In this document: one piece after another, positions 7,099 to 32,000 of the stretch
How positions within the stretch are numbered: the first letter of the stretch is position 1
How the letters are laid out: each line of letters begins with the position of its first letter
NCBI RefSeq assembly: GCF_000007145.1
Contig: NC_003902.1
Span: forward strand, 607,436 to 639,435
DNA length: 32,000 nt
Direction of reading: 5' to 3'
Source of the DNA: Xanthomonas campestris pv. campestris str. ATCC 33913
GTDB taxonomy: Bacteria > Pseudomonadota > Gammaproteobacteria > Xanthomonadales > Xanthomonadaceae
Notes under the pieces: generated by a model
What the model was told of the DNA's origin: nothing
Databases searched by the model: none
What the model saw: the letters and a program-made list of their open reading frames with translations, nothing else
Position numbers and translations under genes: made by a program

Positions 7099-7432
7099 AC
7101 CGCGTGTATGCAAGGCATGTCATGCAGCCAGGTCAGGCGACGGTTGGGACGCGCTCGTCGCTGCGGCGCCCTGGCGCGCGGCATGCGGTGAGCGGGCGCG
7201 TTGTGCAGCTAGGCGGCCGTGTAACGCGATTGACCGGCACATGCGAGCGCCTTGCAGTCGATGGCGTCATTGCCGGCAAGTGCAGCGCGTACGCTGGTCC
7301 AGCAATCCAGCAACTAACGCTTGGCGTGACCGCTGCGACGCGAAGTCTTCTGCTGTTCCGGGCCATCCGCGCACCGGCCCGCGCAACAGTAGGTATCGGG
7401 AGGAATGCTCTTGCGATTCCCGATTCCCAAAC

Positions 7433-7720
<288 letters not shown>

Positions 7721-7820
7721 TCACGAAGCCGGGACGCGTGGCCGGCGAGGGGGAGTGAGTCTAGCGCGTGACCTCACCGCTCGCCACGCCCATGTGGGGT
7801 GGCGCTCAGGTCGCGTCCGC

Positions 7821-9110
7821 TCAACGGAAATCAAAACTGAAGGCGGCCGTGCTCGCGGCCGGTTCGCGGACGCGAAACGCCACCTGCACCGCTTGGCCGG
7901 GCGCCAGCGTGTCCTGCGCGGCGGGCGCCTGGCCCAGATAATCCTGCGGGCTGCACACCCGCGTGCCGATTACCCGGCCGTCGGCATCGGACAGCGACAG
8001 CTGCAGCCACGGCCAGGCCTGTGCCCAGCGTGCATCGTTGCGGAAGCTGGCCTGGATCTGCAGCACGCCCGGGTAGGCGGGCAGCGGGCGCACGTCGCGC
8101 GTCAGCAGGGTCAGCGTGGCCGGGTCGCGCCACGGCGGCAGCGCGCAGCGCGCAACGGCACAGGCCGCACTCACCAGCGGCCGCCAGCGCGCGTCGCCGG
8201 CCAGGCGCGCGCGGTCGGCGATCACGATCTGCAGGCCCAGCAGCAGTACCAGGCCGACCAGCACCGCCCATTGCCAGCCGCTGGCGCGCAGCCGCGGCCG
8301 GACCAGGCCGCGGCGGGCGAAGGCGGGTTCCAGCGTAGGGGCCGGAGTTGGGGAGGAGGATGGCGACGCTGGTGTGGATGTGGATGTGGATGCCGATGCC
8401 GATGCCGATGCCGATGTGGACGTGGGGGCGGGCGTGGTTGCGGTGTCGTCCGGATCTGCTTCCAGCTCGGCCTCGGTCGATGCACCTGCCTCTGCTTCCG
8501 GGGCCGCCTGGGGAGCAGCGGGGGCAGGCTGGCCGTCTTGATTGGCCGGGGGGGACGCCTGCGGCGTTTGCGTGACTGTGGCGCCTGGCGCGCTCGCAGC
8601 GGACTGCGCTGCAATTGCAGGTTGGTCGGGGGCGTTGGTTGCGTGTGCTGCTGCGGCCGGAGCTAACGGAGCTGTAGACGTTGCTACAACTGCCGGAGCG
8701 ATCGCCGCCGCTGCAGTGGGCCGGTCGTCTGCACTGCGGCGCATGGCCGGGTCCGCAGTCTGTGCAGACGAATGCGCCGGCACCGGTGCGGGTGGCGTGG
8801 CAGGCAACGGCAGGGGCGACGCCGGCAGCGGCGCGTCTCGCCGTGTGGGTGCAATCAGGGTGTCAGGCGCACGTGCAGTGGCGTCTGGCGGAGCGGCCTC
8901 CGTGCTGCGTGGTGGCGCTGGCAACGGACGTACCGGCGCCGGAACGGGCGTGGCCAGCGGCGCTGCCACCGGCGCGGGCTCGGGGGCAGGCACTACGGTG
9001 TCGGCCGGCGCGGTCGAAGGCGCGGGCGGGGTCGGGACCAGCGGCGGGGCGGCCGGGGCCGCACGCAGGAACGTGGCAAGCGGGCGGCGCGGAGGCGGAG
9101 TCTCGGACAT
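7821..9110 (-). CDS. Pro/Ala-rich membrane protein with DUF3426-like C-terminal domain
   Basis: About 270 residues of low-complexity P/A/T sequence are followed by one TM helix ('WQWAVLVGLVLLLGLQIVIA') and a C-terminal beta-rich domain ending 'QVAFRVREPAASTAAFSFDFR', typical of DUF3426. It lies upstream of fis as in other Xanthomonadaceae (recollection). Start is either ATG 9110 or TTG 9143. Confidence 0.7.
   Translation of the reverse strand: MSETPPPRRPLATFLRAAPAAPPLVPTPPAPSTAPADTVVPAPEPAPVAAPLATPVPAPVRPLPAPPRSTEAAPPDATARAPDTLIAPTRRDAPLPASPLPLPATPPAPVPAHSSAQTADPAMRRSADDRPTAAAAIAPAVVATSTAPLAPAAAAHATNAPDQPAIAAQSAASAPGATVTQTPQASPPANQDGQPAPAAPQAAPEAEAGASTEAELEADPDDTATTPAPTSTSASASASASTSTSTPASPSSSPTPAPTLEPAFARRGLVRPRLRASGWQWAVLVGLVLLLGLQIVIADRARLAGDARWRPLVSAACAVARCALPPWRDPATLTLLTRDVRPLPAYPGVLQIQASFRNDARWAQAWPWLQLSLSDADGRVIGTRVCSPQDYLGQAPAAQDTLAPGQAVQVAFRVREPAASTAAFSFDFR
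8374..8421. repeat. In-frame hexanucleotide microsatellite (GTGGAT x3, GCCGAT x4, GTGGAC) inside the DUF3426 gene
   Basis: Read directly from the sequence. On the coding (minus) strand it encodes the 'STSASASASASTSTST' tract. Confidence 0.9.
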
Positions 9111-9395
9111 CGGCAGGCGTGCAGCGGGAAGACCGCTATTCAACCACGCGCGCGCCGCATGGCGAACCCGCTGCCGCTGTCAGTGACTGCGGCACCCACC
9201 TGGTGCATGCGGCGCCACGGCGCGGTGCCCCAGGGACGTGCCGCCATGCCGCAGGTGTCTTCAGACAGGCCGACGTTTTATCGCAAGCACTGTTTCCAGC
9301 GAACACTGCCTTGCGATGAAAGGGATTAGGCGGTGCCGCCGCGCCGCACAGGCTCAGGCGACTGCCCCGCGGAGCAACAAGGCCCCGCGTGTAGC

Positions 9396-9773
9396 TCAGC
9401 GCCGCCGGCGCGGCTTGCCTTCGGCCAGCAGCAGATCGAGCAGGCCGGTGCGCTGGCGCGGGGCCAATGCGTCGAAGCGCGACAGCAGCACGCGCTGCTG
9501 CTCATCCAGGTGGCGGTATTGGGCGGGTTCTTCGGCAATCGAGGACACCGGCGGGCCGAACACGCGCTCGCCGCGGCCGGTGGCCAGATATTCGAACGTC
9601 ATGCCGCTGCGCTTGGCCAGGCCGATCAGGTTGTCCACCGACGGCGCGGTGCCTTCGGCCATCTCCCATTGCGCCACCGCGCTGCGGGTCACGCCCAGTT
9701 CGCCGGCCAGGGCTTCCTGGGTCAGCTTGGTCAAGCTGCGGGCCTCGCGTACACGCTCGTATAGCTTGCTCAC
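9396..9773 (-). CDS. XRE-family helix-turn-helix transcriptional regulator
   Basis: 'LTQEALAGELGVTRSAVAQWEMAEGTAPSVDNLIGLAKRSGMTFEYLATG' is a classic Cro/C1 HTH_3 domain. The start is set at GTG 9773 ('VSKLYERVREAR'). The track ORF extends to 9890 through non-coding-looking sequence. Confidence 0.75.
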   Translation of the reverse strand: MSKLYERVREARSLTKLTQEALAGELGVTRSAVAQWEMAEGTAPSVDNLIGLAKRSGMTFEYLATGRGERVFGPPVSSIAEEPAQYRHLDEQQRVLLSRFDALAPRQRTGLLDLLLAEGKPRRRR

Positions 9774-9921
9774 ACGGACACCGGTGGCGGGAACGGGCCG
9801 GGAGATATAGCGCCAGCGACACAATCGAATAGTTCGTATGACTTTCATATCGGCAGATGTTTGCGATACTGGCGTTCGCTGGGTGATCACGACATCACAG
9901 CGAACTCAAGGAGGAGCCGTC

Positions 9922-10416
9922 ATGTGCAAACGTCTGTGGGGCTGGCGTGCGGCGCCGCGCCCAAAACCTGTGCCGCCGACACCCTGGCCGGCCTATTCGC
10001 CGCTGGATCCAGCCGTGGCGCGCTTTGCGGGTGCGGCCCGCTACCTGGTCTGGCGCCGCGACCAGGACTGGACCGCGGTGATCGACGGGCTGCACTGGGG
10101 GCCGGCGCTGGCGCCCCGGTGGTGGGCATGGCGACATCGCCATTGGCGGCTGCTGGCCGCCGGCATGGGAGTGCTGGGCAGTGCGGGCGGGCTGTGGCTC
10201 GCCAGTGCATCCGCCGGCGGCTGGTTGCTGGCGTGGGCGGCGCTGGGTCTGGTCGAGCTCGGTATGCGCGCGTCTGCGGTGCGGCAGGCCAGCCGCTGGC
10301 GGTGCGCGGCCCTGCAGCGTGCTGGCTGGCAGCCGGTGACCCAGCTGCGCGCCATCAGTGTCGAGGATGCCGTCACCACCGCGCGAATCCGCAGCGGTGA
10401 ACTTCGGCCGGAGTGA
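9922..10416 (+). CDS. Hypothetical Trp/Arg-rich membrane protein
   Basis: A strong SD, AAGGAGG (9908-9914), lies 7 nt before ATG 9922. Third-codon positions are very GC-rich. There are two hydrophobic segments ('LLAAGMGVLGSAGGLWLASASAGGWLLAWAALGLV'). It is divergent from the XRE gene. No family recognised. Confidence 0.6.
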   Translation: MCKRLWGWRAAPRPKPVPPTPWPAYSPLDPAVARFAGAARYLVWRRDQDWTAVIDGLHWGPALAPRWWAWRHRHWRLLAAGMGVLGSAGGLWLASASAGGWLLAWAALGLVELGMRASAVRQASRWRCAALQRAGWQPVTQLRAISVEDAVTTARIRSGELRPE

Positions 10417-20637: not shown

Positions 20638-22428
20638 TCAGTTGGCCAGCTGGCAGCTGGCCGGCTTGGCCGAGGAGAACAGGCTGGAGGTGGCCCATTC
20701 CGGGTGATCCACAAACGGGTTGCGGTTGCCCTGGAAGCTGAAAACCACCTGGTTGCGAGCGCGTTCGGCGTCGTCCGGCGGGTCGGCCTGGTGCCAGGCC
20801 AGCAGCGTGGACAGCAGGCCCATGTAGGCCGGCGAGGCCGAGGTCTGCACGATCCGGCTGCGATCGTCGGTGAGCTCCAGGTCCGGCTCGGACTGCCCGG
20901 TGGCCGCGTCAGTGCCGCCTTCATAGCGGATCGCCATGTACATCACCGCGCGCGCCATGTCGGCCTTGCGCCGGCCCCACACCTCGAAGGTGCCGCCGTT
21001 GCCGTCGGGGGTGCGCACCCAGTTGGAATTGCCCGGGTAACGCCCGCTGCCACCGCCGCTGCCGTCGTTGACCTCGGTCACCCGCTCGCCGCAGCTGCTG
21101 GTGCAGGCGGCATAGGGCTTGTTGCCGCGGTCGGCATTGAAGGTGGTGTCGGTCAGATACAACATGTGGGTATCGGTGTAGGGCGCGTAAGGCAGGCCGC
21201 GGTCGCCGGTGGCGCTGCCGAAACCCAGCGAGTTGGGCCAGGTGTGCTCGCGGTTGTAGGTGAGCCCGCTGCCGGTGCCGGCCCGGTCGCTGACCTTGGC
21301 GTAGCTGCGGTTGCGGTAGGCGTCCAGGATCCGCCCGCTGTTGTTGGGGTCCTCGTCGGCCATCTCCAGGATGGTCCAGGTGCTGGTGCCGGTGCCGCTG
21401 TAGGGGTAGACCGTGTGGCCGCGGATGGTGGCGTTGAGCGAGCAGCGCAGCTGGCTGGGGCTGGTGGTGTTCACCCGCGAGTAGTAGCCGGTGCCGCCGC
21501 CGCTGGCCGTGGCCACGGTGAAGGCGATCGACTGATTGCCGGCCGGGCTCAGCCCGCTGGCGTCGCGGATGGCGCTGGCGGTGATGGCCAGGGTGCAGCG
21601 TTCGCCGCCGACCAGGGCGGTATTGGTGGACAGGGTGAAGCGGGTGCCAGTCGTCGGGTAGCTCAGCGCCACCGTGCCGGAGCTGGCGCAGCTCAGCGCG
21701 AACGCGCCGCTGCTCAACGTGACCGCCTCGCTGAAGCCCACGGCCAGGTCGCCCGCCGCCGGGAAACCGGTGGCGCCCTGGGTGGGCGTGGTGCTGGTGA
21801 TGGTGGGTGCGCCGGTGGTGCCGCCACCGCCACTGCCGTTGAAGGTCTGGCCGCGGTTGCAGGCGCCGAAAGTCTGCGCCGACGAACCGGCCCAGCTGAA
21901 GTTGGCCGCGCTGCTGCCGGTGCCGGTCAATTGCAGCGAGCTGCCCACCGCGCTGCTGTTGCTCTCGCTCACCGGCAGGTTCTGGCTGGTGACGCCGGCG
22001 GCGGGGCCACCGCTGCCGGTGATGGCGCCTTCGTAGCTGAGGAACTGCACCAGTTGCCCGCTCGGGTCCACCAGTGCCAGGCCGTCGTTGGGGCCGTTCT
22101 GCACGCCGTTGCTGGCGTAGCTGACCGTGGCAATGCGCACCTGGCTGCCGCAACTGACCACGCTGCCGGGCGGTACCGCCGTGTTGGCGTAGCTCACCGC
22201 CGCGCTGGGCGCGCTGCCGTTGTAGAGATAGATGCGGTAGCCGCTCAGCGACTCGCCGGCGGTGGCCACCACTTCCACGCCTTCGCCGCTGTCGCCGGAG
22301 GCGCCCGCGTCGTCATAGTGCAGTTCGTTGATGAACACCGCCGCGTGCGCGGAGGGAACGGCCAGCGCCACGGCGCAGGCCAGGGGGAGCGCACAGCGCA
22401 GGGACACAACTCGGGACGGCAACCTCAT
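20638..22428 (-). CDS. Secreted nuclease: lamin-tail-like domain + Ig-like region + endonuclease I domain
   Basis: AAGGAG SD 6 nt before ATG 22428. Signal peptide 'MRLPSRVVSLRCALPLACAVALAVPSAHA'. 'VFINELHYDDAG..GEGVEV...LSGYRIYLYNGS' is the LTD of ExeM/NucH-type nucleases. C-terminal 'NREHTWPNS', 'DTHMLYLTD..FNADRGNKPY' and 'GNRNPFVDHPEW' are endonuclease I motifs. Confidence 0.85.
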   Translation of the reverse strand: MRLPSRVVSLRCALPLACAVALAVPSAHAAVFINELHYDDAGASGDSGEGVEVVATAGESLSGYRIYLYNGSAPSAAVSYANTAVPPGSVVSCGSQVRIATVSYASNGVQNGPNDGLALVDPSGQLVQFLSYEGAITGSGGPAAGVTSQNLPVSESNSSAVGSSLQLTGTGSSAANFSWAGSSAQTFGACNRGQTFNGSGGGGTTGAPTITSTTPTQGATGFPAAGDLAVGFSEAVTLSSGAFALSCASSGTVALSYPTTGTRFTLSTNTALVGGERCTLAITASAIRDASGLSPAGNQSIAFTVATASGGGTGYYSRVNTTSPSQLRCSLNATIRGHTVYPYSGTGTSTWTILEMADEDPNNSGRILDAYRNRSYAKVSDRAGTGSGLTYNREHTWPNSLGFGSATGDRGLPYAPYTDTHMLYLTDTTFNADRGNKPYAACTSSCGERVTEVNDGSGGGSGRYPGNSNWVRTPDGNGGTFEVWGRRKADMARAVMYMAIRYEGGTDAATGQSEPDLELTDDRSRIVQTSASPAYMGLLSTLLAWHQADPPDDAERARNQVVFSFQGNRNPFVDHPEWATSSLFSSAKPASCQLAN

Positions 22429-22553
22429 CGACAGCTCCTTGTGATCGGGGAATGCGGTCCCGACTGTAGAACCAACGCATGACAATCGTTGGTACCTGGT
22501 TCCATTTCGTCACCGCGCATGGGTGCGTCAGCGAAAAAATTTTGCGCCTGGCC

Positions 22554-22582
22554 CTTGAAAGCCGCGCGCCCAGCACAATCTC
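22554..22582 (+). promoter_or_regulatory. Putative sigma32-type heat-shock promoter for groESL
   Basis: CTTGAAA (22554-22560) is a perfect -35 match. After a 14-nt spacer, CACAATCT matches CCCCATNT at 5 of 8 positions. Confidence 0.35.
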
Positions 22583-22623
22583 TGGCCCGCACCCGCTTTG
22601 TCGGGTTTTTTCCGCGCGCTGTG

Positions 22624-22650
22624 CTGGCAGTCGTCACATACGAGTGCTAA
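22624..22650 (+). promoter_or_regulatory. CIRCE-like HrcA operator (degenerate left half)
   Basis: cTgGCAgTC-N9-GAGTGCTAA compared with consensus TTAGCACTC-N9-GAGTGCTAA. The right half is perfect, the left half matches 6 of 9, and the spacing is exact. It lies 50 nt upstream of groES. Confidence 0.45.
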
Positions 22651-22700
22651 AATCGCCGATAATTTCCAGACCAATCAATCACTTAAGAGGGTCTTTCTCT

Positions 22701-22988
22701 ATGAGCATCAAGCCGCTTCACGACCGCGTTGTAGTCAAGCCGATCGAAGCCGACGAAGTTTCCGCCGGCGGCATCGTGATCCCGGACTCCGCCAAGGAAA
22801 AGTCCACCAAGGGTGAAGTCGTCGCCATCGGCGCCGGCAAGCCCCTGGACAACGGCAGCCTGCGCGCGCCGGTGGTCAAGGTTGGCGACAAGGTCATCTA
22901 CGGCCAGTACGCCGGCAGCAGCTACAAGTCCGAAGGCGTCGAGTACAAGGTGCTGCGCGAAGACGACATCCTGGCGGTCATCGGCTGA
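22701..22988 (+). CDS. groES: Co-chaperonin GroES
   Basis: '[41 protein letters not shown]', 95 aa. ATG 22701 lies inside track ORF 22479..22988, with AAGAGG upstream. Confidence 0.97.
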
Positions 22989-24774: not shown

Positions 24775-24807
24775 TCCAGCCCCACCGGTTGTTGCCTCAA
24801 AAAAGGA

Positions 24808-24831
24808 CCCCGCCGAAAGGCGGGGTTTTTT
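24808..24831 (+). terminator. groESL rho-independent terminator
   Basis: CCCCGCC-gaaa-GGCGGGG followed by TTTTTT. Confidence 0.9.
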
Positions 24832-24936
24832 GTCACAACACGTTTGCGTAGATGTGCGCGCGCGTGTTGGCGAAGTTTTGCTTCACTCGGCATACTCTGA
24901 CGAGAGTTTCGACGTATTTTCATAAAGGCATTCTCC

Positions 24937-27840
24937 ATGTCCACTCTGCCAGCGCCATCGAGCGGCGGTGTCTATCCCAGTGGTCAGCCTGGGTCGCATC
25001 GGTACTCACATCACCAGGGCAAGTTCTTCGCTCATTGGTTGACGTTGCGTAGTCGTGACGAATCGGCAGTTGCACGTGCCTTGTCTGCTGCGCGCGTCGA
25101 TATGAACCCGCATCAGGTGGATGCCGCTTTATTCGCGCTCAAATCGCCTGTGGAGGCGGGCGTGTTGCTTGCCGACGAGGTTGGACTCGGCAAGACCATC
25201 GAGGCCGGCCTGGTGCTGGCCCAGCATTGGGCACAACGTCGCCGCCGTCTGCTGTTGATCGTCCCTGCAACGCTGCGCAAGCAGTGGACACAGGAGCTCG
25301 AAGAGAAGTTTCAACTACCGTCCGTCATTCTCGAGAGCAAATCGTTCAATGCTTTTCGTCAGCTCGACGTAAGCAATCCTTTTCAGATCGAAGACGCGAT
25401 CATCGTGACGTCCTATGAGTTTGCCGCAAGCAAGCAAAAAGAGCTCGCTGCGGTCAGCTGGGATCTGGTCGTGCTGGATGAGGCACACAAGCTGCGCAAC
25501 TTGTACAAGGGCAAGAGTGCGTCAAAGCGTGCTGTCGCCTTGAACGAAGCGCTGCGTGGCAGGCGAAAGGTCCTGCTGACCGCCACGCCGTTCCAGAATT
25601 CGTTGATGGAGTTGTATGGGCTAGTGTCCTTCATCAGCGACGAGTTCTTTGGTAGTCAGAAGGCGTTTCAGATGCAGTACGCCTCAGGTCGGAGCTCCGA
25701 AGCTCGTCTTAACGACCTGAGGCATCGGCTCAAGCCGATTTGCCACCGTACCTTGCGTCGTCAGGTCCAGGCCGAAGGTGGCATTAATTTCACCAAGCGC
25801 TTTTCCATCACTCAGGACTTCACGCCTTCCGACGAGGAGCTTGAGCTCTACGACAAGGTTTCGGCTTACCTGCAGGATCCTTCCATCCTTGCCATCAAGC
25901 CGACAGCCCGGCATCTGGTGACATTGGTGGTACGCAAGATTCTCGCCTCCTCGACGTTCGCCATCGCCGATACGCTCGAGACGATCATCGGTCGACTCGA
26001 GTCCAACCAGGCGCTCACCGCCAAGCAGATCGAAGATTTCGAGACCGTCGACGAACTCAGTGATGAGCTGGATTCCGATGGAATGGAAAGGCAGGGCGAT
26101 GCGCCGGATAGCGATGCCTTGCAGGCAGAGCTGTTCTGCCGCGCGCAGGAAATCGATCGTCTGCGCGGTTACCGTGACCTGGCCAAGCAGATTCAAAGCA
26201 ATCGCAAGGGCGACGCGCTATTACTGGTCCTCGGGCGAGCGCTTGCGATGGCCGAAAAGCTCGGCGGGCAACGTAAGGCAGTGATCTTTACCGAGTCGCG
26301 GCGCACACAGGAGTACTTGCGTGTCCTGCTCGAAGAACATGGCTATGCCGGACGAACCGTCCTGCTCAATGGAAGCAACGACGACGTCGATTCCAGGCAG
26401 CTGTATGCCGACTGGCTGGAGCGTCACGCCGGCTCTACGCTTGTTTCAGGTTCCAGGACGGCAGACATGAAGGCCGCAGTGGTCGAAGCTTTTCGCGATC
26501 ATCGTGATGTTCTCATCACAACCGAAGCAGGCGGCGAGGGCATCAACCTGCAATTCTGCTCGTTATTGGTCAACTACGATCTGCCATGGAATCCGCAGCG
26601 TGTGGAGCAGCGGATCGGGCGTATCCATCGCTATGGTCAGAAGAGCGATGTGGTCGTGGTGAATTTCGTCAATCGCAAGAATCGTGCGGATCAATTGGTG
26701 TTTGAGCTCCTGGAAAAGAAGTTCAAATTGTTTGACGGTGTATTTGGTGCCAGCGATGAGATATTGGGTGCGATCGAATCCGGTGTGGACATCGAGCAGC
26801 GGATCCTGCGCATCTATCAGAACTGTCGCGACGCCGCGCAGATCGAGTCGGAGTTCGCTACCTTGCAGGCTGAGCTGGACGAGAGCATCGGCCGGCGCGA
26901 GGAAAGTGCGCGGCGCATGCTGCTGGAGCATTTTGACGAGGATGTCGTACGCAACTTGCGCTCACGTCGCGCAGGCATGCTTCATAAGATCAATCAGTAT
27001 GAAAGTCAGTTTCTACACCTGATCGCTGCCGAACGTCCTAAAGCGCGCATCAGCGACAAGCTGGTTAAACTGGAGGAAGGCGATTACGCCGTCAGCTGGC
27101 CGCCGGCCGAAGAAGCCAACGCCGGGCTGTTGAGGCCGGACAAGGGGTTGGGGGAAAGGCTTTGCCGCCAGGCCAAAGAACGTCCGACTCTACCTGGTAC
27201 GCTTCATTTCGATTACGCCGCTGTGGATGCGCAGCGTGCCGATGTGCGCCAGTGGCTGGGAAGCAGAGGGCAGCTGCGTGTAGCGTTGGTCACCATCCAG
27301 ACCGCGGAGGAAGTGCTGGAAGAGCTGGTGTGCAGTGCGCTGTGCAGTGATGGGCGTGTCGTGCCCGACGAGACCGCTGCGCGTCTGATGGAAATTCCTG
27401 CCCGCTTTGTACCACGGCACCGCGTCGCCGAAGATCGTGCGCTTCCCGCTTTTGAAGCGGCAGTTGAGCGCGTGCTGGCAGAGGCAAACAAGCGTAACGA
27501 GAGTTGGTTTTTGCAGGAGTCCGAGCGCCTTGATCGTTGGGGCGAGGATCAAAGACTATTGCTGCAGCAGAGTATCGACGAATTCGACCTGCAGGTGCGC
27601 GATGCCAAACGCACCTTGCGTCAGCTCGAGACCCTGGAGCAGAAAGCCCAGCTCAAACGCGAGATCAAGCGGATCGAGCAGCAGCGTGATGATGCCATGC
27701 TGGATTTTTTTGAAGGTAGAAAGCGCATCGAGCGTAGCCAGGACGTGATGCTGGAGCGGGTCGAAAATGCGTTGCGCACGCAGCACACCGTACAGGTGCT
27801 GTTTGATGTGGAGTGGACCTTGGAGCATCCCGAACCATGA
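24937..27840 (+). CDS. SNF2-family helicase with ~350-residue C-terminal coiled-coil extension
   Basis: Motif I 'ADEVGLGKTIEAG' (GLGKT 25183-25197), motif II 'DEAHKLRN' (DEAH 25477-25488), 'LLTATPFQNSLMELYGL', 'AVIFTESRRT', 'TEAGGEGINLQ', 'NYDLPWNPQRVEQRIGRIHRYGQ'. GC and GC3 are lower than in the flanking core genes. Confidence 0.9.
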   Translation: MSTLPAPSSGGVYPSGQPGSHRYSHHQGKFFAHWLTLRSRDESAVARALSAARVDMNPHQVDAALFALKSPVEAGVLLADEVGLGKTIEAGLVLAQHWAQRRRRLLLIVPATLRKQWTQELEEKFQLPSVILESKSFNAFRQLDVSNPFQIEDAIIVTSYEFAASKQKELAAVSWDLVVLDEAHKLRNLYKGKSASKRAVALNEALRGRRKVLLTATPFQNSLMELYGLVSFISDEFFGSQKAFQMQYASGRSSEARLNDLRHRLKPICHRTLRRQVQAEGGINFTKRFSITQDFTPSDEELELYDKVSAYLQDPSILAIKPTARHLVTLVVRKILASSTFAIADTLETIIGRLESNQALTAKQIEDFETVDELSDELDSDGMERQGDAPDSDALQAELFCRAQEIDRLRGYRDLAKQIQSNRKGDALLLVLGRALAMAEKLGGQRKAVIFTESRRTQEYLRVLLEEHGYAGRTVLLNGSNDDVDSRQLYADWLERHAGSTLVSGSRTADMKAAVVEAFRDHRDVLITTEAGGEGINLQFCSLLVNYDLPWNPQRVEQRIGRIHRYGQKSDVVVVNFVNRKNRADQLVFELLEKKFKLFDGVFGASDEILGAIESGVDIEQRILRIYQNCRDAAQIESEFATLQAELDESIGRREESARRMLLEHFDEDVVRNLRSRRAGMLHKINQYESQFLHLIAAERPKARISDKLVKLEEGDYAVSWPPAEEANAGLLRPDKGLGERLCRQAKERPTLPGTLHFDYAAVDAQRADVRQWLGSRGQLRVALVTIQTAEEVLEELVCSALCSDGRVVPDETAARLMEIPARFVPRHRVAEDRALPAFEAAVERVLAEANKRNESWFLQESERLDRWGEDQRLLLQQSIDEFDLQVRDAKRTLRQLETLEQKAQLKREIKRIEQQRDDAMLDFFEGRKRIERSQDVMLERVENALRTQHTVQVLFDVEWTLEHPEP

Positions 27841-29153
27841 GTAATTCACGTGAATTGGGGGATTTGCTCGAGCAGATTCGGCTGGGCGAAGACTCGCAGC
27901 TGGAATTCAAGCGCGTCGTGTTCGAAAACGACAAAATCAAAGGCCCGAACGGGGATAGCCTTAGCCAGGAAATCGCGGCATTCGCTAATGCCATCGGTGG
28001 GCGCCTGATCCTGGGTGTGGACGACAAGACCCGCGACGTGGTCGGGATTCCATTGGATCGATTGGACGCGGTCAGCATCTGGCTCGAGAACTGCGTGCAT
28101 GACCGCATCAAGCCCGAGCCCACCATCTATTTGCGGCGCAGGCTGGTCCCTGATCGCTCCGGTACCGAGCATGCCGTTTTGGTGATCGATATACCGCGTT
28201 CGCTCTATGTCCATCTCGCCCCAGGTGGTTATTTCCGCCGTCAGGGCAGTTCCAAGCACGAACTGCCGCCAAACGAATTGTTGCGTCTCATGCAGTCGCG
28301 GCAGCGCGCCGGAACTCTGGGGTTCGATGAGATGCCCGTGCTGGGCTGTACGCAGGCGAACTTTGATGCTGCGCTGTACGGTCGCTTTCTCGGCACAACC
28401 GATGAACCTGAGGAACTGCGCCTACGCAAGCTGAAGCTGCTGGTTCCGGGAGAGCCTGGCGAGGAGTGGGCCAGCGTCGCAGGCGTCTTGATGGCGACGG
28501 CCACGCCAAGCGATTGGCTGCCGCAGGCCTATGTGCAGTGCGTGCACTATGCCGGTACCGAGAAGACTGCCCAGGAGCAACTGGATGCGCAGGATATCCA
28601 GGGTCCGCTGGATCAGCAGATTCGTCAGGCTGCCGCCTTCGTACTGCGAGGCATGCGCACTGCGGCACGCAAGAATTTGGGCCGGATCGACGTGCCCCAG
28701 TTCGATCCAGAGGCTGTATTCGAGGCCATCGCCAACGCCGGTGCGCATCGCGACTACTCGATCAGCGGGGCGCCTGTGCAGGTGCATCTGTTCACCGACC
28801 GGCTGGAGATCACCTCGCCCGGCGCGTTGCCTAACTCCCAATCGGTGGAGTCGATCGCCCTGCGCACCGCCACCCGCAATGAACTGTTGACCAACCTACT
28901 GGCGCGTTGTCCGGTCGAGATGGAAGGCGTCGGCCGGAGCCGCGTGATGGAGAAGCGTGGCGAGGGCGTGCCGCAGATACTTAATCGCAGCGAGCGCCTA
29001 TCTGGGCATCGGCCAAAGTTCGAGTTGCTGGGTGAAAATGCATTACGTGTGACGTTGTACGCAGCCGATCCTGAAACGAGCCCGCTATTGAACGAAGCCG
29101 GTAGAGGCAGTGTGGGCCTCCCCCATGCGGGCTTTGCCCGCGACGATGGCTGA
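27837..29153 (+). CDS. AlbA_2 (Schlafen-like) domain protein with HATPase_c_4-like C-terminal module ('RecG-like' putative regulator family)
   Basis: ATG 27837 overlaps the helicase stop (ATGA). Contains 'EDSQLEFKRV', 'AAFANAIGGRLILGVDD', and later 'FEAIANAGAHRDYS', 'LEITSPGALP', 'TRNELLTNLLAR'. Confidence 0.8.
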   Translation: MSNSRELGDLLEQIRLGEDSQLEFKRVVFENDKIKGPNGDSLSQEIAAFANAIGGRLILGVDDKTRDVVGIPLDRLDAVSIWLENCVHDRIKPEPTIYLRRRLVPDRSGTEHAVLVIDIPRSLYVHLAPGGYFRRQGSSKHELPPNELLRLMQSRQRAGTLGFDEMPVLGCTQANFDAALYGRFLGTTDEPEELRLRKLKLLVPGEPGEEWASVAGVLMATATPSDWLPQAYVQCVHYAGTEKTAQEQLDAQDIQGPLDQQIRQAAAFVLRGMRTAARKNLGRIDVPQFDPEAVFEAIANAGAHRDYSISGAPVQVHLFTDRLEITSPGALPNSQSVESIALRTATRNELLTNLLARCPVEMEGVGRSRVMEKRGEGVPQILNRSERLSGHRPKFELLGENALRVTLYAADPETSPLLNEAGRGSVGLPHAGFARDDG

Positions 29154-29191
29154 AGAATTGATCTACTGCTGATAGAAGTAGGTGGAGTCGC

Positions 29192-29212
29192 TAGCTCTCG
29201 TACCAAGAGCTA
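29192..29212 (+). promoter_or_regulatory. Perfect 7-bp-stem hairpin (TAGCTCT-cgtacca-AGAGCTA) in the AT-rich spacer before the PHP-ATPase gene
   Basis: Read directly from the sequence. No T-run follows. The function (operator, processing site or weak terminator) is unknown. Confidence 0.25.
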
Positions 29213-29281
29213 TCCCTGCGGCCATAGGCAGGTATAAGTTGAAATACGAAACAACTGACACAAAAGCCAAGGAGAGCCGAT

Positions 29282-32000
29282 ATGACAGACTTCCCAGGAG
29301 CGCGCTGGTGGCGTTGCGATTTCCACAATCACACGCCAGCATCCAGCGACTACCGCGGCAACACCGCATACTCGGATCGTGATTGGCTTCTGGACTACAT
29401 GCGTGCCGGGATCGACTGCGTTGCGATAACCGATCACAATTGTGGCGACCGCATTGACGCGTTGCGCGGCGCTTTGGCCGTTCTTGCCGCCCAACAGCCG
29501 GCTGATCCAGCTTATCGCCCATTGGTACTTTTGCCCGGCGTAGAAATTACTACTTCTGAAGGTCTGCACCTACTGGCGATCTTCGACGAGGCTGAGCCTG
29601 CGGGCACCATCAATCGTGTATTGATCCGCATCGATTGCCCGAAGCTTGGGAAGAATCACGACAAGCAGTGCGGCAAGAATGCATTAGACACGATCGAGGC
29701 AATTCGGAAGGAAGGGGGAATTGTTGTCGCCGCCCATGTAGACAGCAACAACGGTCTGTACGAGACACAGGCGACCAGTTCCGCCAGTGGTGTGCTGTGT
29801 TATAAAACACGCTTGAAATCAAGAACACTCGTCCAGATCCTGCCCGGAATAGATGCGGCCCAAGTGGTGAACGAATGCAACCCCGCAATCGCTGGCTATC
29901 TGCCTGCGCTACGCGAGCGCGTCGCCATTGTCGCTGGTTCGGATGCGCACATGCCTGCTGAAGCTGGTTCGGCTAGCACCTGGGTCAAGATGAGTCGTCC
30001 TAGCTTGCGGGCATTGCGCATGGCGCTGGTTGATCATAAAGGCAGCGTCCAGCGTTTCGATTCAACACTGCCGAACCCTAACCGCACACCGCCACTGTGG
30101 CTGAGCGGTCTTAGTGCTGGCCCGCTGCAGCTGCGCCAGAATCCGCAGCAGGGTCAGCTAAACGTCGAGTTCAACCCATGGTTCAACAGCATCATCGGTG
30201 GACGTGGCACTGGTAAGTCGTCGTTGGTGGAACTGCTGAGAATCGTGCTTCGTCGAGATGGCGATCTGGCAGGCGAGCGTAGTGGTCCACTAGCGCAGAT
30301 CCATGATGTCTTCAGGAATTTCGCGCTTGCCAATGACAAGGACGGCCGTGGCGCCCTGCGTTCCGATACCAAGATCCAGGTCAAACTGAATAAGGATGGG
30401 CAAGCGATGGCCGTGGCATGGGACAAGCGTTCCGGCCTGACAACGATCGAAGAACATACTGGTAGCGACTGGTCGCCGGTACCGGAACAAATTGATGACG
30501 ACTATGTGCGCAATCGCTTCCCGGTGACGGTACTGAGCCAGAAGCAGATCTATGCGCTTGCTGAACAGCGCGGCTACCTACTCGAGTTGCTCGACCGGCA
30601 ACCGCAGGTTGACAAAGCACAATGGCAGCGTCGATTCGACGCGATGCGCCAACGCTTCCTTGGCCTTCGTGCACAAGCGCGGCAACTGGCGCCCGACTTG
30701 AGCCAGCGGCCTGCGCTTGAAGCCGAACTGCGTGACACCGAGCGCAAGCTCAAAGCGCTGGAACTGTCGCACCATGCAAGCAGCTTGCAGGCCTATCAGC
30801 GTGCGCGGCGCCAACTGAGCGCGCAGCAGAACCTGCTCGCGCAGTGGCAGAGCGACCTCGAAAGCATGCGACCAGTGGTTGAGGATTCCGACCTGTTTCG
30901 GCGCATCGAGTTCGAAGGATTCGATCAGGCCACTGGCGATGAAGCCGAGTTCATAGGATTGGTCGAGCAGGTTGAGTCGGAGCTACGCGGCCACTACGAG
31001 CAGATTCGGACTGCCGTGTCGCAGATCGAGGCTACCCTGGCGACGACACCTGCCCGTTTCGCCGCCTTACGCTTGCAGGTTGCGATTACGCAAGCGCAGG
31101 CCGACTATCAGGCGCTGCTGGAGAGACTGAAGTCTCAGGGAGTGGAATCGCCCGATCAATACGCGGCACTGGTCGCCCGGAGGGACGAACTGCAGAAGGA
31201 GCTAAAGCGTCTGGATGCAGGTCTTCATGAACAGGCAGGCTACATACAGCAAGCAGAGCAGGTGCTTGAGGAATTGACGCAGCTGCGCCATGAGATTAGC
31301 GAAAGCCGGAAAGATTTCATCACAGAGATCAACCAGCGGGCAGGGAATAGAATTCGTCTGAGTCTGTCGCGTTTCGGTACGCCGGAAATTGCCGAAACTC
31401 GCTTCCGTGAGTTGATCAAACAACCCACAGCGTTCGCCGAGGATATCTACGAAGTGCTGGAGGGCGGCGCCAGACGCGGTGTGCTGCACCGGTTGTTCAG
31501 CGCATCTGTCGCGGACTTCGAGAACGAGCTCTCTGCTTTGAAGAAAGAGATCCTACGCATGCGGCAGGAACCTGCCAAGCATGAGGACCTGCTCGGCGAA
31601 AAAGTTAACAAACGACTACGAACGCACATCGAAACCAGACTTGGTGAGCTGGAGATTGATGAATTGCTGACGTGGTTTCCGGATGACGGTCTCGATCTTA
31701 TGTTCACGCAGAGCGGAAAATCGCGATCAGTGGACGGAGCTTCCGCAGGCCAGAAAAGCGCTGCTGTGTTGTCTCTACTGCTGGCGTTTGGCGGAGAGCC
31801 GTTGATCGTGGATCAGCCTGAAGACGATCTGGACAACGCAATGGTGATGGATCTGGTCGTCAGCCAGATACGCGCCAACAAGACGCATCGGCAGTTGATC
31901 GTTGTTACCCATAATCCAAATGTGGTGGTCAACGGGGACGCTGAATGGGTAATACCAATGCATTTCCATAAAGGTCAAATCGATGTGGATGCGACTGGCT
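29282..32000 (+). CDS. PHP-domain phosphoesterase fused to SMC/Rad50/SbcC-type coiled-coil ABC ATPase (3' end outside window; absent from supplied ORF track)
   Basis: SD AAGGAGAG (29269-29276) precedes ATG 29282. I translated 906 codons by hand to 31999 with no stop. PHP motifs: 'CDFHNHT', 'ITDHN', 'GVEITT', 'AAHVD', 'GSDAH'. Walker A 'GGRGTGKSS' (30197-30220), a ~480-residue Q/E/R/L-rich segment, signature-like 'SAGQKSA' (31742-31759), Walker B 'LIVDQPEDDLD' (31802-31834), and 'VVTHNPN'. Confidence 0.85.
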   Translation, partial: MTDFPGARWWRCDFHNHTPASSDYRGNTAYSDRDWLLDYMRAGIDCVAITDHNCGDRIDALRGALAVLAAQQPADPAYRPLVLLPGVEITTSEGLHLLAIFDEAEPAGTINRVLIRIDCPKLGKNHDKQCGKNALDTIEAIRKEGGIVVAAHVDSNNGLYETQATSSASGVLCYKTRLKSRTLVQILPGIDAAQVVNECNPAIAGYLPALRERVAIVAGSDAHMPAEAGSASTWVKMSRPSLRALRMALVDHKGSVQRFDSTLPNPNRTPPLWLSGLSAGPLQLRQNPQQGQLNVEFNPWFNSIIGGRGTGKSSLVELLRIVLRRDGDLAGERSGPLAQIHDVFRNFALANDKDGRGALRSDTKIQVKLNKDGQAMAVAWDKRSGLTTIEEHTGSDWSPVPEQIDDDYVRNRFPVTVLSQKQIYALAEQRGYLLELLDRQPQVDKAQWQRRFDAMRQRFLGLRAQARQLAPDLSQRPALEAELRDTERKLKALELSHHASSLQAYQRARRQLSAQQNLLAQWQSDLESMRPVVEDSDLFRRIEFEGFDQATGDEAEFIGLVEQVESELRGHYEQIRTAVSQIEATLATTPARFAALRLQVAITQAQADYQALLERLKSQGVESPDQYAALVARRDELQKELKRLDAGLHEQAGYIQQAEQVLEELTQLRHEISESRKDFITEINQRAGNRIRLSLSRFGTPEIAETRFRELIKQPTAFAEDIYEVLEGGARRGVLHRLFSASVADFENELSALKKEILRMRQEPAKHEDLLGEKVNKRLRTHIETRLGELEIDELLTWFPDDGLDLMFTQSGKSRSVDGASAGQKSAAVLSLLLAFGGEPLIVDQPEDDLDNAMVMDLVVSQIRANKTHRQLIVVTHNPNVVVNGDAEWVIPMHFHKGQIDVDATG

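What the first reader, a model, noticed from the sequence alone, without database searches (positions are those of the whole stretch)
29282..32000. Long ORF missing from the supplied ORF track: PHP phosphoesterase fused to a Rad50/SbcC-like coiled-coil ATPase
Seen:
- ATG 29282 has a good SD, and the frame stays open for 906 codons to the window end.
- The ORF track shows only short antisense ORFs here, presumably because this ORF has no stop codon inside the window.
- The N-terminal ~290 residues carry the His/Asp/Glu ladder of PHP metal-dependent phosphoesterases. The H-x-H motif is at 29324-29332 in 'CDFHNHTPASSDY'. Further motifs are 'ITDHN', 'GVEITT', 'AAHVD' and 'GSDAH'.
- Next comes Walker A 'GGRGTGKSS', then a long heptad-like Q/E/R/L-rich insert.
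- The C-terminal head half has 'SAGQKSA', 'LIVDQPEDDLD' and 'VVTHNPN'.

Established:
- A split ABC head around a coiled coil is the Rad50/SbcC/RecN/SMC layout.
- PHP domains act as exonucleases or phosphoesterases in PolX, DnaE and YcdX-type proteins.

Inference:
- This is a single-chain analogue of SbcCD/Mre11-Rad50 in which PHP replaces the calcineurin-fold nuclease. It would be a plausible DNA-end or structure-sensing effector.
- It resembles my unverified recollection of the single-gene 'Ppl' candidate (PHP plus ATPase, Gao et al. 2020). It also recalls an NCBI family label, 'TrlF family AAA-like ATPase'.
Basis: partly seen in the sequence, partly recalled or inferred. Interest (0 to 1): 0.8.

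Follow-up and report, generated by a model that had tools for sequence, protein, structure and literature searches.

The report
Ppl-like phage-defence nuclease with Schlafen partner
The long unlisted ORF is a real gene for a known type of anti-phage enzyme (a PHP nuclease fused to an SMC-like ATPase, already named TrlF by NCBI), and relatives of this gene usually travel with a Schlafen-type RNase gene that the characterised single-gene E. coli relative Ppl lacks.

Summary
ATG 29282 follows an AAGGAG Shine-Dalgarno site, and the frame stays open for 906 codons to the window end. Every quoted motif is present. A near-identical 942-aa Xanthomonas campestris protein is annotated "TrlF family AAA-like ATPase", so only about 36 residues are missing.

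The protein passes the NCBIfam TrlF cut-off (492 vs 350 bits). It aligns end to end with anti-phage Ppl (31% identity to E. coli Ppl) but fails the Ppl equivalog cut-off (533 vs 1000). All nine PHP metal ligands and all ABC motifs are invariant across the family. A confident AlphaFold model shows PHP, an SMC/JetC/Rad50-like head, and a short coiled coil with no zinc hook.

In 61 of 80 homologous loci (61 of about 77 with readable downstream sequence), TrlF is followed at once by a Schlafen-nuclease/GHKL protein with an intact Ex4ExK site. The two proteins co-evolve (r = 0.77). E. coli Ppl has no such partner.

In this window the partner lies upstream, translationally coupled to a DrmD-like SNF2 helicase. 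Together the three genes form a low-GC island after groEL. Related islands add type III Mod/Res genes or sit inside BREX operons.

The parts
29282..32000 (+). TrlF-family (Ppl-like) gene, 5' 906 of 942 codons; runs off the window end
   Evidence: Open frame. NCBIfam TrlF 492 bits against cut-off 350. Near-identical 942-aa P0001, named TrlF family AAA-like ATPase [X. campestris].
29269..29274 (+). Shine-Dalgarno AAGGAG, 7 nt before the ATG
   Evidence: Read directly from the sequence.
29282..30076 (+). PHP phosphoesterase domain (residues 1 to about 265). Metal ligands are H15, H17, D23, H52, E88, H96, H152, D221 and H223.
   Evidence: All nine positions are invariant in alignment A1. Hits: CehA/McbA metallohydrolase E 1e-15; PHP_C; PHP structures 9etk and 2anu by profile. 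The AF2 model is confident here.
30197..30220 (+). Walker A motif GGRGTGKS (residues 306-313)
   Evidence: Invariant in A1. Aligns to the SMC/Rad50 P-loop.
30536..30547 (+). Q-loop SQKQ (residues 419-422)
   Evidence: Invariant in A1.
30614..31342 (+). Helical coiled-coil insertion (residues 445-687). The apex loop is at 535-551 (30884-30934) and has no Cys, so there is no zinc hook.
   Evidence: AF2 secondary structure shows helices 445-534 and 552-687, with lower pLDDT at the apex. The sequence shows no CxxC there.
31742..31753 (+). ABC signature motif S-A-G-Q (residues 821-824)
   Evidence: S821, G823 and Q824 are invariant.
31802..31834 (+). Walker B and D-loop, LIVDQPEDDLD (residues 841-851). 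Gln845 occupies the position where ABC ATPases have the catalytic Glu.
   Evidence: DQPEDDLD is invariant in A1. It is also present in true Ppl from Photobacterium and E. coli.
31907..31915 (+). H-loop T-H-N (residues 876-878)
   Evidence: Invariant in A1.
27837..29153 (+). Conserved partner gene: prokaryotic Schlafen nuclease domain + GHKL/HATPase_c_4 domain (438 aa). Ex4ExK at 27888-27911 (E18, E23, K25); GVDD at 28014-28025; GHKL N-box at 28722-28757.
   Evidence: Pfam SLFN_AlbA_2 and HATPase_c_4. Profile hits to SLFN14/13/11/5/12, with the catalytic residues aligned. AF2 pLDDT 85.6. Foldseek matches 3lmm, the Schlafens and PDK/HK853. A homologue lies next to TrlF in 61 of 80 loci.
24937..27840 (+). 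SNF2 helicase (DrmD/BrxHII/RapA-like, 967 aa). Its stop overlaps the Schlafen start (ATGA at 27837-27840).
   Evidence: Pfam SNF2-rel_dom and Helicase_C. NCBIfam DrmD_b 640 bits, below the 950 cut-off. PADLOC DrmD E 3e-195. Junction sequence. An SNF2 gene lies directly upstream of the Schlafen gene in L084, L086, L087, L088, L089 and L090.
29154..29281 (.). 128-nt spacer between the Schlafen gene and TrlF. In Silanimonas a type III mod gene occupies this position.
   Evidence: No mod remnant was detected, and no promoter or terminator consensus match lies within the spacer. Silanimonas gene map.
24801..24832 (+). groEL terminator hairpin with a T-run, marking the left border of the island
   Evidence: Sequence GACCCCGCCGAAAGGCGGGGTTTTTTG. 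GC falls from 0.68-0.70 in the housekeeping flank (0.60-0.64 across groESL) to 0.55-0.60 in the island.

Best explanation
The ORF encodes a TrlF-family protein, a full-length homologue of the anti-phage protein Ppl. It has an N-terminal PHP metal-dependent nuclease fused to an SMC/Rad50-like ABC ATPase whose head is split by a short coiled coil. By homology with E. coli Ppl, it most likely acts as a latent 3'-to-5' exonuclease. Bound NTPs would hold it off, and it would be released when phage infection lowers NTP pools and creates free 3'-OH DNA ends, so that it degrades phage DNA. Shown here: family membership, intact catalytic and nucleotide-binding motifs, the fold, and location in a low-GC defence island after groEL. 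Inferred: the activity, the trigger and the anti-phage role in Xanthomonas. In this genome the gene belongs to a co-directional three-gene cluster: an SNF2 helicase, a Schlafen-GHKL gene, and TrlF. The Schlafen-GHKL gene is the habitual neighbour of TrlF across bacteria, so TrlF probably does not act entirely alone here.
For: Family and homology:
- NCBIfam TrlF scores 492 bits against a cut-off of 350. Ppl scores 533 bits over model positions 1-853 of 882.
- PADLOC Ppl gives E 2e-136.
- Identity to RefSeq-annotated E. coli Ppl is 31% over residues 6-938, E 1e-113, with every motif aligned.
- The nine PHP ligands and the Walker A, Q-loop, signature, Walker B/D-loop and H-loop motifs are invariant in 25 diverse homologues.

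Structure:
- The AF2 model has pLDDT 86.9 and pTM 0.75.
- Foldseek top hits are the SMC head, JetC, MukB, Rad50 and RecN, with E 1e-11 to 1e-8.

Published mechanism of Ppl:
- PMC12904381 (section 'DNA-end sensing').
- PMC13434339, reference 51 (Xu et al. Mol Cell 2026;86:180).

Defence context:
- DrmD-like SNF2 and Schlafen genes are adjacent.
- The island has 55-60% GC against 68-70% in the housekeeping flank.
- Homologues are embedded in BREX, DUF1156/DUF499, type I and type III R-M operons.
Against: - The protein fails the curated Ppl equivalog cut-off (533 against 1000) and is only about 30% identical to Ppl. Substrate and trigger could therefore differ.
- No experiment exists for any TrlF-clade protein in the literature I could search.
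- The Walker B Glu is replaced by Gln across the family, so ATP hydrolysis may be weak. That fits an NTP-sensing role but is untested.
- The primary Ppl paper could not be read. Its mechanism is taken from two secondary citations.
- The near-constant Schlafen partner of this clade suggests that a single-protein model is incomplete.
Confidence: 0.72

Rival explanations
1. TrlF and the Schlafen-GHKL protein form an obligate two-component system. One protein senses infection (DNA ends or an NTP drop, through the SMC-like ATPase or the GHKL domain). Either the PHP DNA exonuclease, the Schlafen RNase, or both then act as effectors, giving combined DNA degradation and tRNA/rRNA cleavage (abortive infection). 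This extends the best explanation rather than excluding it.
For: - A Schlafen-GHKL homologue (42-50% identical) lies directly downstream of TrlF in 61 of 80 loci from many phyla. It usually starts within 25 nt of the TrlF stop or overlaps it.
- An unbiased clustering of neighbouring ORFs finds it as by far the most frequent neighbour.
- Pairwise distances of the two proteins correlate at r=0.77, with 0 of 2000 permutations reaching that value.
- The catalytic Ex4ExK and GVDD motifs are invariant.
- In the published screen only DUF262- and Ig-like-fused pSlfns protected. The HisKinase-fused representatives that were tested alone were not among the protecting ones (PMC13056530, section 6).
Against: - E. 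coli Ppl works as a single gene and has no Schlafen gene within 7 kb.
- About 16 TrlF loci with enough downstream sequence lack the partner.
- In the window's own lineage the Schlafen gene is translationally coupled to the SNF2 gene, not to TrlF. It also persists in loci that lack TrlF: L087, L089 and L090.
- Co-inheritance on a mobile cassette can produce a mirror-tree correlation without any physical interaction.
Confidence: 0.4
2. TrlF (with or without Schlafen) is a back-up or guard module for a restriction-modification-type system, comparable to PrrC or RloC in type I R-M loci, or to PARIS. It stays silent while the R-M or BREX machine works and fires when a phage anti-restriction factor disables that machine. 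In Xanthomonas the guarded Mod/Res genes are absent and only the SNF2 helicase remains.
For: - About 16 of 37 substantial co-directional genes directly upstream of TrlF are DNA methyltransferases or specificity subunits: N6_N4 Mod, PglX-like, DUF1156, HsdS.
- Downstream genes include Res, DUF499, HsdR, PglZ and BrxL.
- Silanimonas has SNF2-Schlafen-Mod-TrlF-Res at the same site after groEL.
- In L090 an OLD-like ABC ATPase + DUF4276 pair follows the Schlafen gene in place of TrlF.
- PMC12839542 interprets Schlafen-HisK-wHTH genes and OLD-ABC modules inside BREX/BR loci as back-up effectors.
Against: - Many cassettes sit in housekeeping contexts.
- The window and L088 have no Mod or Res at all, and no remnants were found.
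- Ppl is activated by DNA ends and NTP depletion, not by anti-restriction proteins (PMC12904381).
- Nesting inside defence operons is common for independent defence genes.
Confidence: 0.2
3. It is a housekeeping DNA-repair enzyme: a single-chain functional analogue of SbcCD/Mre11-Rad50 that processes hairpins or double-strand breaks in the host chromosome.
For: - The fold resembles Rad50, RecN and SMC heads.
- PHP domains serve as proofreading or repair exonucleases in PolX and DnaE (general knowledge).
Against: - The gene lies in a low-GC island with variable content among close relatives.
- The phyletic pattern is sporadic and the neighbours are defence genes.
- The curated relatives are anti-phage proteins.
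- There is no zinc hook and the coiled coil is short.
Confidence: 0.05

Closest known systems
Ppl (PplA), single-gene anti-phage system of E. coli (Gao et al. 2020; mechanism in Xu et al. Mol Cell 2026)
   Same: The architecture matches end to end: PHP, ABC head N-lobe, coiled coil, head C-lobe. Identity is 31% over the full length, E 1e-113. The PHP ligands match, as do GxxGxGKS, SQK, SxGQK, DQPEDDLD and the H-loop. The NCBIfam Ppl model is matched over positions 1-853 of 882.
   Different: The score of 533 is below the equivalog cut-off of 1000, whereas a Photobacterium Ppl scores 1473. E. coli ppl stands alone on a plasmid with no Schlafen or SNF2 gene nearby. The TrlF clade is usually followed by a Schlafen-GHKL gene and is often nested in R-M or BREX operons.
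NCBIfam NF045780 'TrlF family AAA-like ATPase'
   Same: It passes the curated cut-off (492 against 350, even though truncated), and the near-identical RefSeq protein carries this name.
   Different: None at the family level. I found no published function or origin for the name.
Rad50/SbcC-Mre11/SbcD, and SMC-like defence ATPases (JetC of Wadjet, LmuB of Lamassu, RecN)
   Same: It has a split ABC head with a coiled-coil insertion. Foldseek E values run from 1e-11 to 1e-8 against SMC, JetC, MukB, Rad50 and RecN, and PADLOC LmuB gives E 2e-11. A nuclease is coupled to a DNA-sensing ATPase.
   Different: The nuclease is a PHP domain fused in cis, not a calcineurin-fold subunit. The coiled-coil arms are short (about 90-135 residues). 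The apex has no CxxC zinc hook or hinge. Walker B reads D-Q rather than D-E. The C-terminal half also resembles OLD-family ATPases (AAA_21, AriA), so its exact position within the ABC ATPases is unresolved.
Prokaryotic Schlafen defence nucleases, pSlfn-HisKinase(-HTH) class (Taboada et al. Nat Microbiol 2026, PMC13056530); this concerns the partner gene
   Same: The partner has the Ex4ExK catalytic motif, a Schlafen C-lobe-like fold and a GHKL/HisKinase-like domain. This is the most common pSlfn architecture: 34% HisKinase plus 19% HisKinase-HTH.
   Different: That paper does not mention PHP, SMC or an ATPase. A specific pairing with TrlF, or with an SNF2 helicase, is not described in the papers I could search.
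PrrC / RloC (ABC or Rad50-like ATPase fused to a nuclease, encoded inside type I R-M loci); comparison from my own knowledge
   Same: An ABC-type NTPase is fused to a nuclease, and the gene is encoded between modification and restriction genes. NTP-sensitive latency is described for PrrC.
   Different: PrrC and RloC are anticodon RNases, not PHP DNA exonucleases, and there is no sequence relationship. A guard function was not tested here.

Membership tests
TrlF family AAA-like ATPase (NCBIfam NF045780) | Whole-protein HMM score at or above the curated cut-off (350 bits) | tested here: met
   492 bits, E 5.5e-147, for the truncated 906 aa. Nine further homologues score 534-647.
TrlF family AAA-like ATPase (NCBIfam NF045780) | Full-length architecture: PHP + AAA-like/ABC ATPase, about 900-950 aa | tested here: met
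   Model positions 2-907 of 944 are aligned. The full-length protein is 942 aa. The AF2 domain layout agrees.
Ppl anti-phage protein (NCBIfam NF042955 equivalog; PADLOC Ppl) | HMM score at or above the equivalog cut-off (1000 bits) | tested here: not met
   533 bits. A Photobacterium protein scores 1473. PADLOC Ppl scores 454 bits, E 2e-136, with no cut-off given.
Ppl anti-phage protein (NCBIfam NF042955 equivalog; PADLOC Ppl) | PHP domain with a complete metal-ligand set | tested here: met
   H15, H17, D23, H52, E88, H96, H152, D221 and H223 are invariant in A1 and aligned to E. coli Ppl.
Ppl anti-phage protein (NCBIfam NF042955 equivalog; PADLOC Ppl) | Stand-alone single-gene system | tested here: not met
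   The window has a co-directional SNF2-Schlafen-TrlF cluster. 61 of 80 homologous loci have an adjacent Schlafen-GHKL gene. E. coli ppl has none.
Ppl anti-phage protein (NCBIfam NF042955 equivalog; PADLOC Ppl) | NTP-inhibited 3'-5' ssDNA exonuclease activity and phage protection | not testable with these tools
   Known only from the literature on E. coli Ppl (PMC12904381; PMC13434339 ref 51).
Rad50/SbcC | ABC head motifs split by an antiparallel coiled coil | tested here: met
   Motifs are invariant. Helices span 445-687 between the head halves. Foldseek matches Rad50, SMC and RecN.
Rad50/SbcC | CxxC zinc hook at the coiled-coil apex | tested here: not met
   The apex at 535-551 reads DSDLFRRIEFEGFDQAT and has no Cys. 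It is a low-pLDDT loop, and no conserved Cys appears there in A1.
Rad50/SbcC | Separate Mre11/SbcD calcineurin-fold nuclease partner | tested here: not met
   No such gene lies in the island. The nuclease is a fused PHP domain.
DISARM (tested for the neighbouring SNF2 gene) | DrmD HMM at cut-off, together with the core drmA, drmB and drmC genes | tested here: not met
   DrmD_b scores 640 against a cut-off of 950. No drmABC genes lie in the window or in L001; the flanks are groEL and a DLH fragment.
Prokaryotic Schlafen nuclease, pSlfn (tested for the partner gene) | Ex4(E/D)xK catalytic motif in a Schlafen C-lobe-like domain | tested here: met
   E18, E23 and K25 are invariant and align to the FTE-STHVE-FK motif of SLFN14 (E211/E216 by the entries' mutant names). 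GVDD also aligns. Foldseek matches SLFN14, SLFN5, SLFN11 and SLFN13.
Type III restriction-modification | mod (N6_N4 MTase) and res (ResIII helicase-nuclease) genes | tested here: not met
   Both are absent from the window and from Xanthomonas loci L001 and L086, with no remnants. They are present around TrlF in Silanimonas and Polaromonas.

The most novel reading that the evidence does not exclude
TrlF plus the Schlafen-GHKL protein is a distinct, widespread and so far undescribed two-gene defence module. It would couple a Ppl-like, NTP-gated PHP DNA exonuclease with a Schlafen RNase. The module moves as a cassette and repeatedly inserts between the methyltransferase and the restriction or effector genes of BREX, BREX-related, type I and type III R-M systems. 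In the Xanthomonas lineage it has been rearranged into an SNF2-Schlafen-TrlF trio. If true, this could explain why the most common bacterial Schlafen architecture (pSlfn-HisKinase) was not among the fusions that protected when tested alone.
Probability: 0.4. Interest if true: 0.6.

Novelty: new member of a known kind. Interest (0 to 1): 0.38.

Why it matters
For the gene itself the result is mostly tidying up. A long ORF was absent from the ORF track only because it runs off the window. It is already annotated in RefSeq, and it belongs to a family whose E. coli relative, Ppl, now has a published mechanism.

The comparative result is the useful part. Most members of the wider TrlF family are not single-gene systems. 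They carry a co-evolving Schlafen-GHKL neighbour with an intact RNase site, and the pair is repeatedly nested inside methylation-based defence operons.

That gives a concrete, testable hypothesis about how the commonest class of bacterial Schlafens is controlled. It also bears on whether Ppl-type DNA-end and NTP sensing is wired to an RNA-cleaving abortive response. Finally, it warns against transferring the single-gene Ppl model to every protein that hits the PADLOC/DefenseFinder-type Ppl profile.

Tried and rejected
- **Origin of the name TrlF.** Two literature searches returned only spectroscopy (TRLFS) and unrelated papers.
- **Primary Ppl paper.** Xu et al. 2026 (doi 10.1016/j.molcel.2025.11.011) is not held. 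The ABC ATPase classification by Krishnan et al. 2020 is not held either. That paper might already describe a PHP-ABC/Schlafen linkage.
- **Solved structure of Ppl or TrlF.** None was found by sequence, by profile or by fold.
- **Promoter or terminator in the 128-nt Schlafen-TrlF spacer.** No consensus match lies within the spacer, and the counts over the scanned region are not above the shuffled expectation.
- **Mod/Res remnants in Xanthomonas.** None were found by tblastn or by short-word blastn. Similarity to Silanimonas begins only about 16 nt before the TrlF start. The direction of change, loss or gain of mod/res, therefore stays open.
- **SNF2 helicase as a core partner of TrlF.** Rejected. 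Only 8 of about 80 TrlF loci have an SNF2 relative within range, and only Polaromonas has a close one. The SNF2 gene is instead the constant neighbour of the window-type Schlafen gene.
- **DISARM membership for the island.** Rejected.
- **Enterobacterial or vibrio partner-less homologues as true Ppl.** Rejected. Of the ten proteins tested, only L079 passes the Ppl cut-off.


Full report
**1. Observation**

The frame starting at ATG 29282 stays open for 906 codons to the end of the window. AAGGAG lies 7 nt upstream of the ATG. The mechanical ORF list shows only short antisense ORFs across 29163-31707. That tool omits ORFs that run off the source, which explains why the gene is missing from the track.

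The ORF is not a chance product of a GC-rich genome. A near-identical protein (P0001, three substitutions over 906 aa) is 942 aa long and is named "TrlF family AAA-like ATPase [Xanthomonas campestris]". It lies on a complete 5.04-Mb chromosome. The window therefore comes from X. campestris or a very close relative and lacks only the last 36 codons.

**2. What the protein is**

- **Pfam.** Only fragments are seen: AAA_21 and AAA_23 pass their gathering scores, while SMC_N and PHP_C fall below theirs.
- **NCBIfam.** Two full-length matches appear. Ppl_antiphage scores 533 bits, E 1e-159, against an equivalog cut-off of 1000. TrlF_fam_ATP scores 492 bits against a cut-off of 350.
- **PADLOC.** The Ppl model gives E 2e-136.

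By the curators' thresholds the protein is therefore a TrlF-family member and a homologue of Ppl, but not an equivalog of it.

A 25-sequence alignment of homologues 33-82% identical to the query was examined for conserved positions.

- The nine positions expected for a trinuclear PHP site are invariant: H15, H17, D23, H52, E88, H96, H152, D221 and H223.
- So are Walker A (GGRGxGKS), the Q-loop (SQKQ), the signature (SxGQ), Walker B with the D-loop (DQPEDDLD) and the H-loop (THN).
- The residue after the Walker B aspartate is glutamine in every sequence. ABC ATPases normally have the catalytic glutamate there.
- The same holds in genuine Ppl from Photobacterium and E. coli.

From general knowledge of E-to-Q mutants of ABC ATPases, this suggests nucleotide binding with slow hydrolysis. 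That is an inference and was not tested.

An AlphaFold2 model built on this alignment is confident (mean pLDDT 86.9, pTM 0.75). It shows:

- an alpha/beta PHP domain (residues 1 to about 265);
- an N-terminal head lobe;
- a helical insertion (445-687) with a low-confidence apex loop (535-551) that contains no cysteine;
- a C-terminal head lobe.

Foldseek against the PDB returns the SMC head with coiled coil, JetC, MukB, Rad50 and RecN (E 1e-11 to 1e-8). No chain combines PHP with such a head. Sequence and profile searches of the PDB likewise find no Ppl or TrlF structure.

The family is large. An exhaustive search found 699 clusters at 50% identity with E<=1e-30.

**3. Relation to the characterised Ppl**

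RefSeq annotates "ppl: anti-phage protein Ppl" on two E. coli plasmids. That protein is 31% identical to the Xanthomonas protein over residues 6-938 (E 1e-113), and all catalytic motifs align.

[quoted passage not shown] NTPs bound to both its PHP and NTPase domains hold it inactive. Phage-induced nucleotide depletion, together with 3'-OH ends made by phage homing endonucleases, activates it. The source is PMC12904381. The primary paper, Xu et al. Mol Cell 2026;86:180, is cited in PMC13434339 and in 10.64898/2026.05.12.722862. It was not readable here.

A phage protein, Bas63 gp130, counters Ppl (PMC11482910).

**4. Surroundings in the window**

The gene is the last of three co-directional genes that start just after the groEL terminator.

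- **SNF2 helicase, 24937-27840.** It is closest to DrmD/BrxHII/RapA-type helicases but falls below the DrmD cut-off.
- **Schlafen-GHKL gene, 27837-29153 (438 aa).** Its ATG overlaps the SNF2 stop (ATGA).
- **TrlF, from 29282,** after a 128-nt spacer.

GC content drops from 68-70% in the housekeeping flank (60-64% across groESL) to 55-60% across these three genes.

The middle protein has Pfam SLFN_AlbA_2 and HATPase_c_4 domains. A family profile matches the nuclease cores of SLFN14, SLFN13/8, SLFN11, SLFN5 and SLFN12, as well as the CRISPR-associated Schlafen Cash. The invariant E18, E23 and K25 (the Ex4ExK motif) and the GVDD motif align to the Schlafen catalytic residues.

Its AF2 model has pLDDT 85.6. 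It matches three groups of structures:

- the uncharacterised structural-genomics protein 3LMM, over its full length;
- Schlafen proteins, at the N-terminus;
- PDK and histidine-kinase ATP-binding domains, at the C-terminus.

It therefore belongs to the commonest class of prokaryotic Schlafens, pSlfn-HisKinase(-HTH). That class makes up 34% plus 19% of 5,930 pSlfns (PMC13056530).

**5. Conserved pairing**

I fetched 80 TrlF loci from species-representative genomes and searched them with the window's neighbouring proteins.

- The Schlafen-GHKL protein has a 42-50% identical, full-length homologue in 61 of the 80 loci.
- It always lies on the same strand, immediately downstream of TrlF. It usually starts within 25 nt of the TrlF stop or overlaps it.
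- About 16 loci with enough downstream sequence lack it.
- An unbiased clustering of all neighbouring ORFs finds this gene as by far the most frequent neighbour.
- Pairwise distances of the TrlF and Schlafen proteins across 64 loci correlate at r=0.77. None of 2,000 permutations exceeded 0.19. This shows that they are inherited and diverge together. It does not prove contact between them.
- The genuine E. coli ppl locus has no Schlafen or SNF2 gene within 7 kb. The only sampled protein that passes the Ppl cut-off (Photobacterium, L079) also lacks the partner.
- Partner-less loci are not generally Ppl, however. Hafnia, Pectobacterium, Vibrio and others are TrlF by score.

**6. Larger context**

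The cassette is often nested inside other defence operons.

- **BREX type 1-like:** PglX-like methylase, TrlF, Schlafen, a 782-aa protein, BrxL (L035, L023, L012).
- **BREX-related type:** SNF2/NOV_C, DUF1156, TrlF, Schlafen, DUF499 (L060 and relatives). PMC12839542 calls this kind of locus BREX-related.
- **Type III R-M:** SNF2, AIPR, Mod, TrlF, Res in Polaromonas (L015).
- **Type I-like:** L057.

Of 37 substantial co-directional genes directly upstream of TrlF, about 16 are DNA methyltransferases or specificity subunits. Downstream genes include DUF499, Res, HsdR and PglZ.

PMC12839542 reports Schlafen-minimal-HisK-wHTH genes inside BREX and BREX-related loci in at least 1,017 taxa and reads them as back-up effectors. 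It does not mention PHP or Ppl. No held paper combines Schlafen, PHP and ABC ATPase.

**7. The window's own lineage**

In Silanimonas the TrlF protein is 54% identical to the window's. The same site after groEL carries SNF2, Schlafen, Mod, TrlF and Res. Xanthomonas sp. NCPPB 3582 has the same SNF2-Schlafen-TrlF trio as the window.

I sampled four close homologues of the window's Schlafen protein. Each has an SNF2 helicase directly upstream. What follows the Schlafen gene varies:

- TrlF directly (L088, a second trio without mod or res);
- an OLD-like ABC ATPase, DUF4276 and DUF4268, then Mod and Res (L090);
- decayed Mod and Res, without TrlF (L087, L089).

In neighbour-joining trees, both the Schlafens and the TrlFs of these SNF2-linked loci cluster together. 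Between Silanimonas and Xanthomonas the SNF2 protein is 78% identical and the Schlafen protein 71%, but TrlF only 54%.

Xanthomonas shows no remnant of mod or res. I therefore cannot say whether they were lost here or gained elsewhere.

In this lineage TrlF looks like fast-evolving, exchangeable cargo in an SNF2-Schlafen-anchored island. In most other lineages TrlF and Schlafen form a tight pair.

**8. Mechanism**

Best supported (confidence about 0.7): the protein works like Ppl. It would be a latent PHP 3'-5' exonuclease, gated by nucleotide occupancy of the PHP and ABC sites and by access to 3'-OH DNA ends. The short coiled-coil ABC module would mediate dimerisation and DNA sensing.

- *Shown here:* homology, intact sites, fold and defence-island context.
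- *Inferred:* activity, trigger and phenotype.

Three alternatives remain.

- **Obligate pair with the Schlafen protein (about 0.4).** TrlF and the Schlafen-GHKL protein would function together, adding an RNA-cleaving arm. This extends the main explanation rather than replacing it.
- **Guard role for R-M or BREX machinery (about 0.2).** This is comparable to PrrC, RloC or PARIS. It is suggested by the nesting but contradicted by the stand-alone trios.
- **Housekeeping repair role.** This is unlikely.

**9. Novelty and verdict**

The finding as stated is correct but not new. The gene is already annotated in RefSeq, and its family has a characterised member. I file it as a new member of a known kind.

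The part worth following is the conserved TrlF-Schlafen pairing and its modular insertion into methylation-based systems, which I could not find described. Two obvious sources were unavailable, so this claim of novelty is provisional.

Noticed in passing
window 2936-7018 (+): A 1360-aa ice-nucleation protein gene (Pfam Ice_nucleation, 1259 bits, 49 repeat stretches). This is a known kind of gene in Xanthomonas (InaX type).
   Followed up: no
window 20638-22485 (-): A large Endonuclease_1 protein with Lamin-tail and Big_5 domains, about 600 aa and probably secreted. It is transcribed divergently from groES.
   Followed up: no
window 7241-10416 (+): Four consecutive plus-strand ORFs (176, 303, 185 and 192 aa) downstream of the ice-nucleation gene have no Pfam match. 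Whether they are real genes was not checked.
   Followed up: no
window 31802-31822; alignment A1; L079; L091: Walker B reads D-Q-P-E in every TrlF and Ppl protein examined, with Gln where ABC ATPases have the catalytic Glu. This is a natural 'EQ' variant that may make the ATPase a nucleotide sensor rather than a motor.
   Followed up: partly
L090 7247-10003: After the same SNF2-Schlafen pair, an OLD-like ABC ATPase (AAA_15/AAA_21), DUF4276 and DUF4268 precede Mod and Res, where other islands carry TrlF. This suggests an exchangeable slot for ABC-ATPase/nuclease modules.
   Followed up: partly
L067 7543-8781: TrlF is followed, with a 4-nt overlap, by a 412-aa ORF that tblastn with the window's partner does not detect as a Schlafen. 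It is probably the one downstream ORF with a HATPase_c_4 hit (that call reports family counts only), so it may be a variant partner with a different N-terminal domain.
   Followed up: no
L084 versus window 24937-32000: Divergence within one island is uneven. Between Silanimonas and Xanthomonas, SNF2 is 78% identical and Schlafen 71%, but TrlF only 54%. Across loci the mean pairwise distance is 0.64 for TrlF and 0.48 for the Schlafen protein.
   Followed up: partly
L001 13991-18453 (-), outside the window: Two large genes (704 and 657 aa) with no Pfam hit lie downstream of TrlF in X. campestris CP067002. In Xanthomonas sp. NCPPB 3582 a TonB-dependent receptor gene occupies that position. HipA-like toxin genes lie further downstream in both.
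   Followed up: no
window 22479-22988: The mechanical ORF for groES is 169 aa, but the gene as called is 95 aa. High-GC sequence inflates the N-termini of ORFs. The same applies to the 446-aa ORF against the 438-aa gene for the Schlafen protein.
   Followed up: yes
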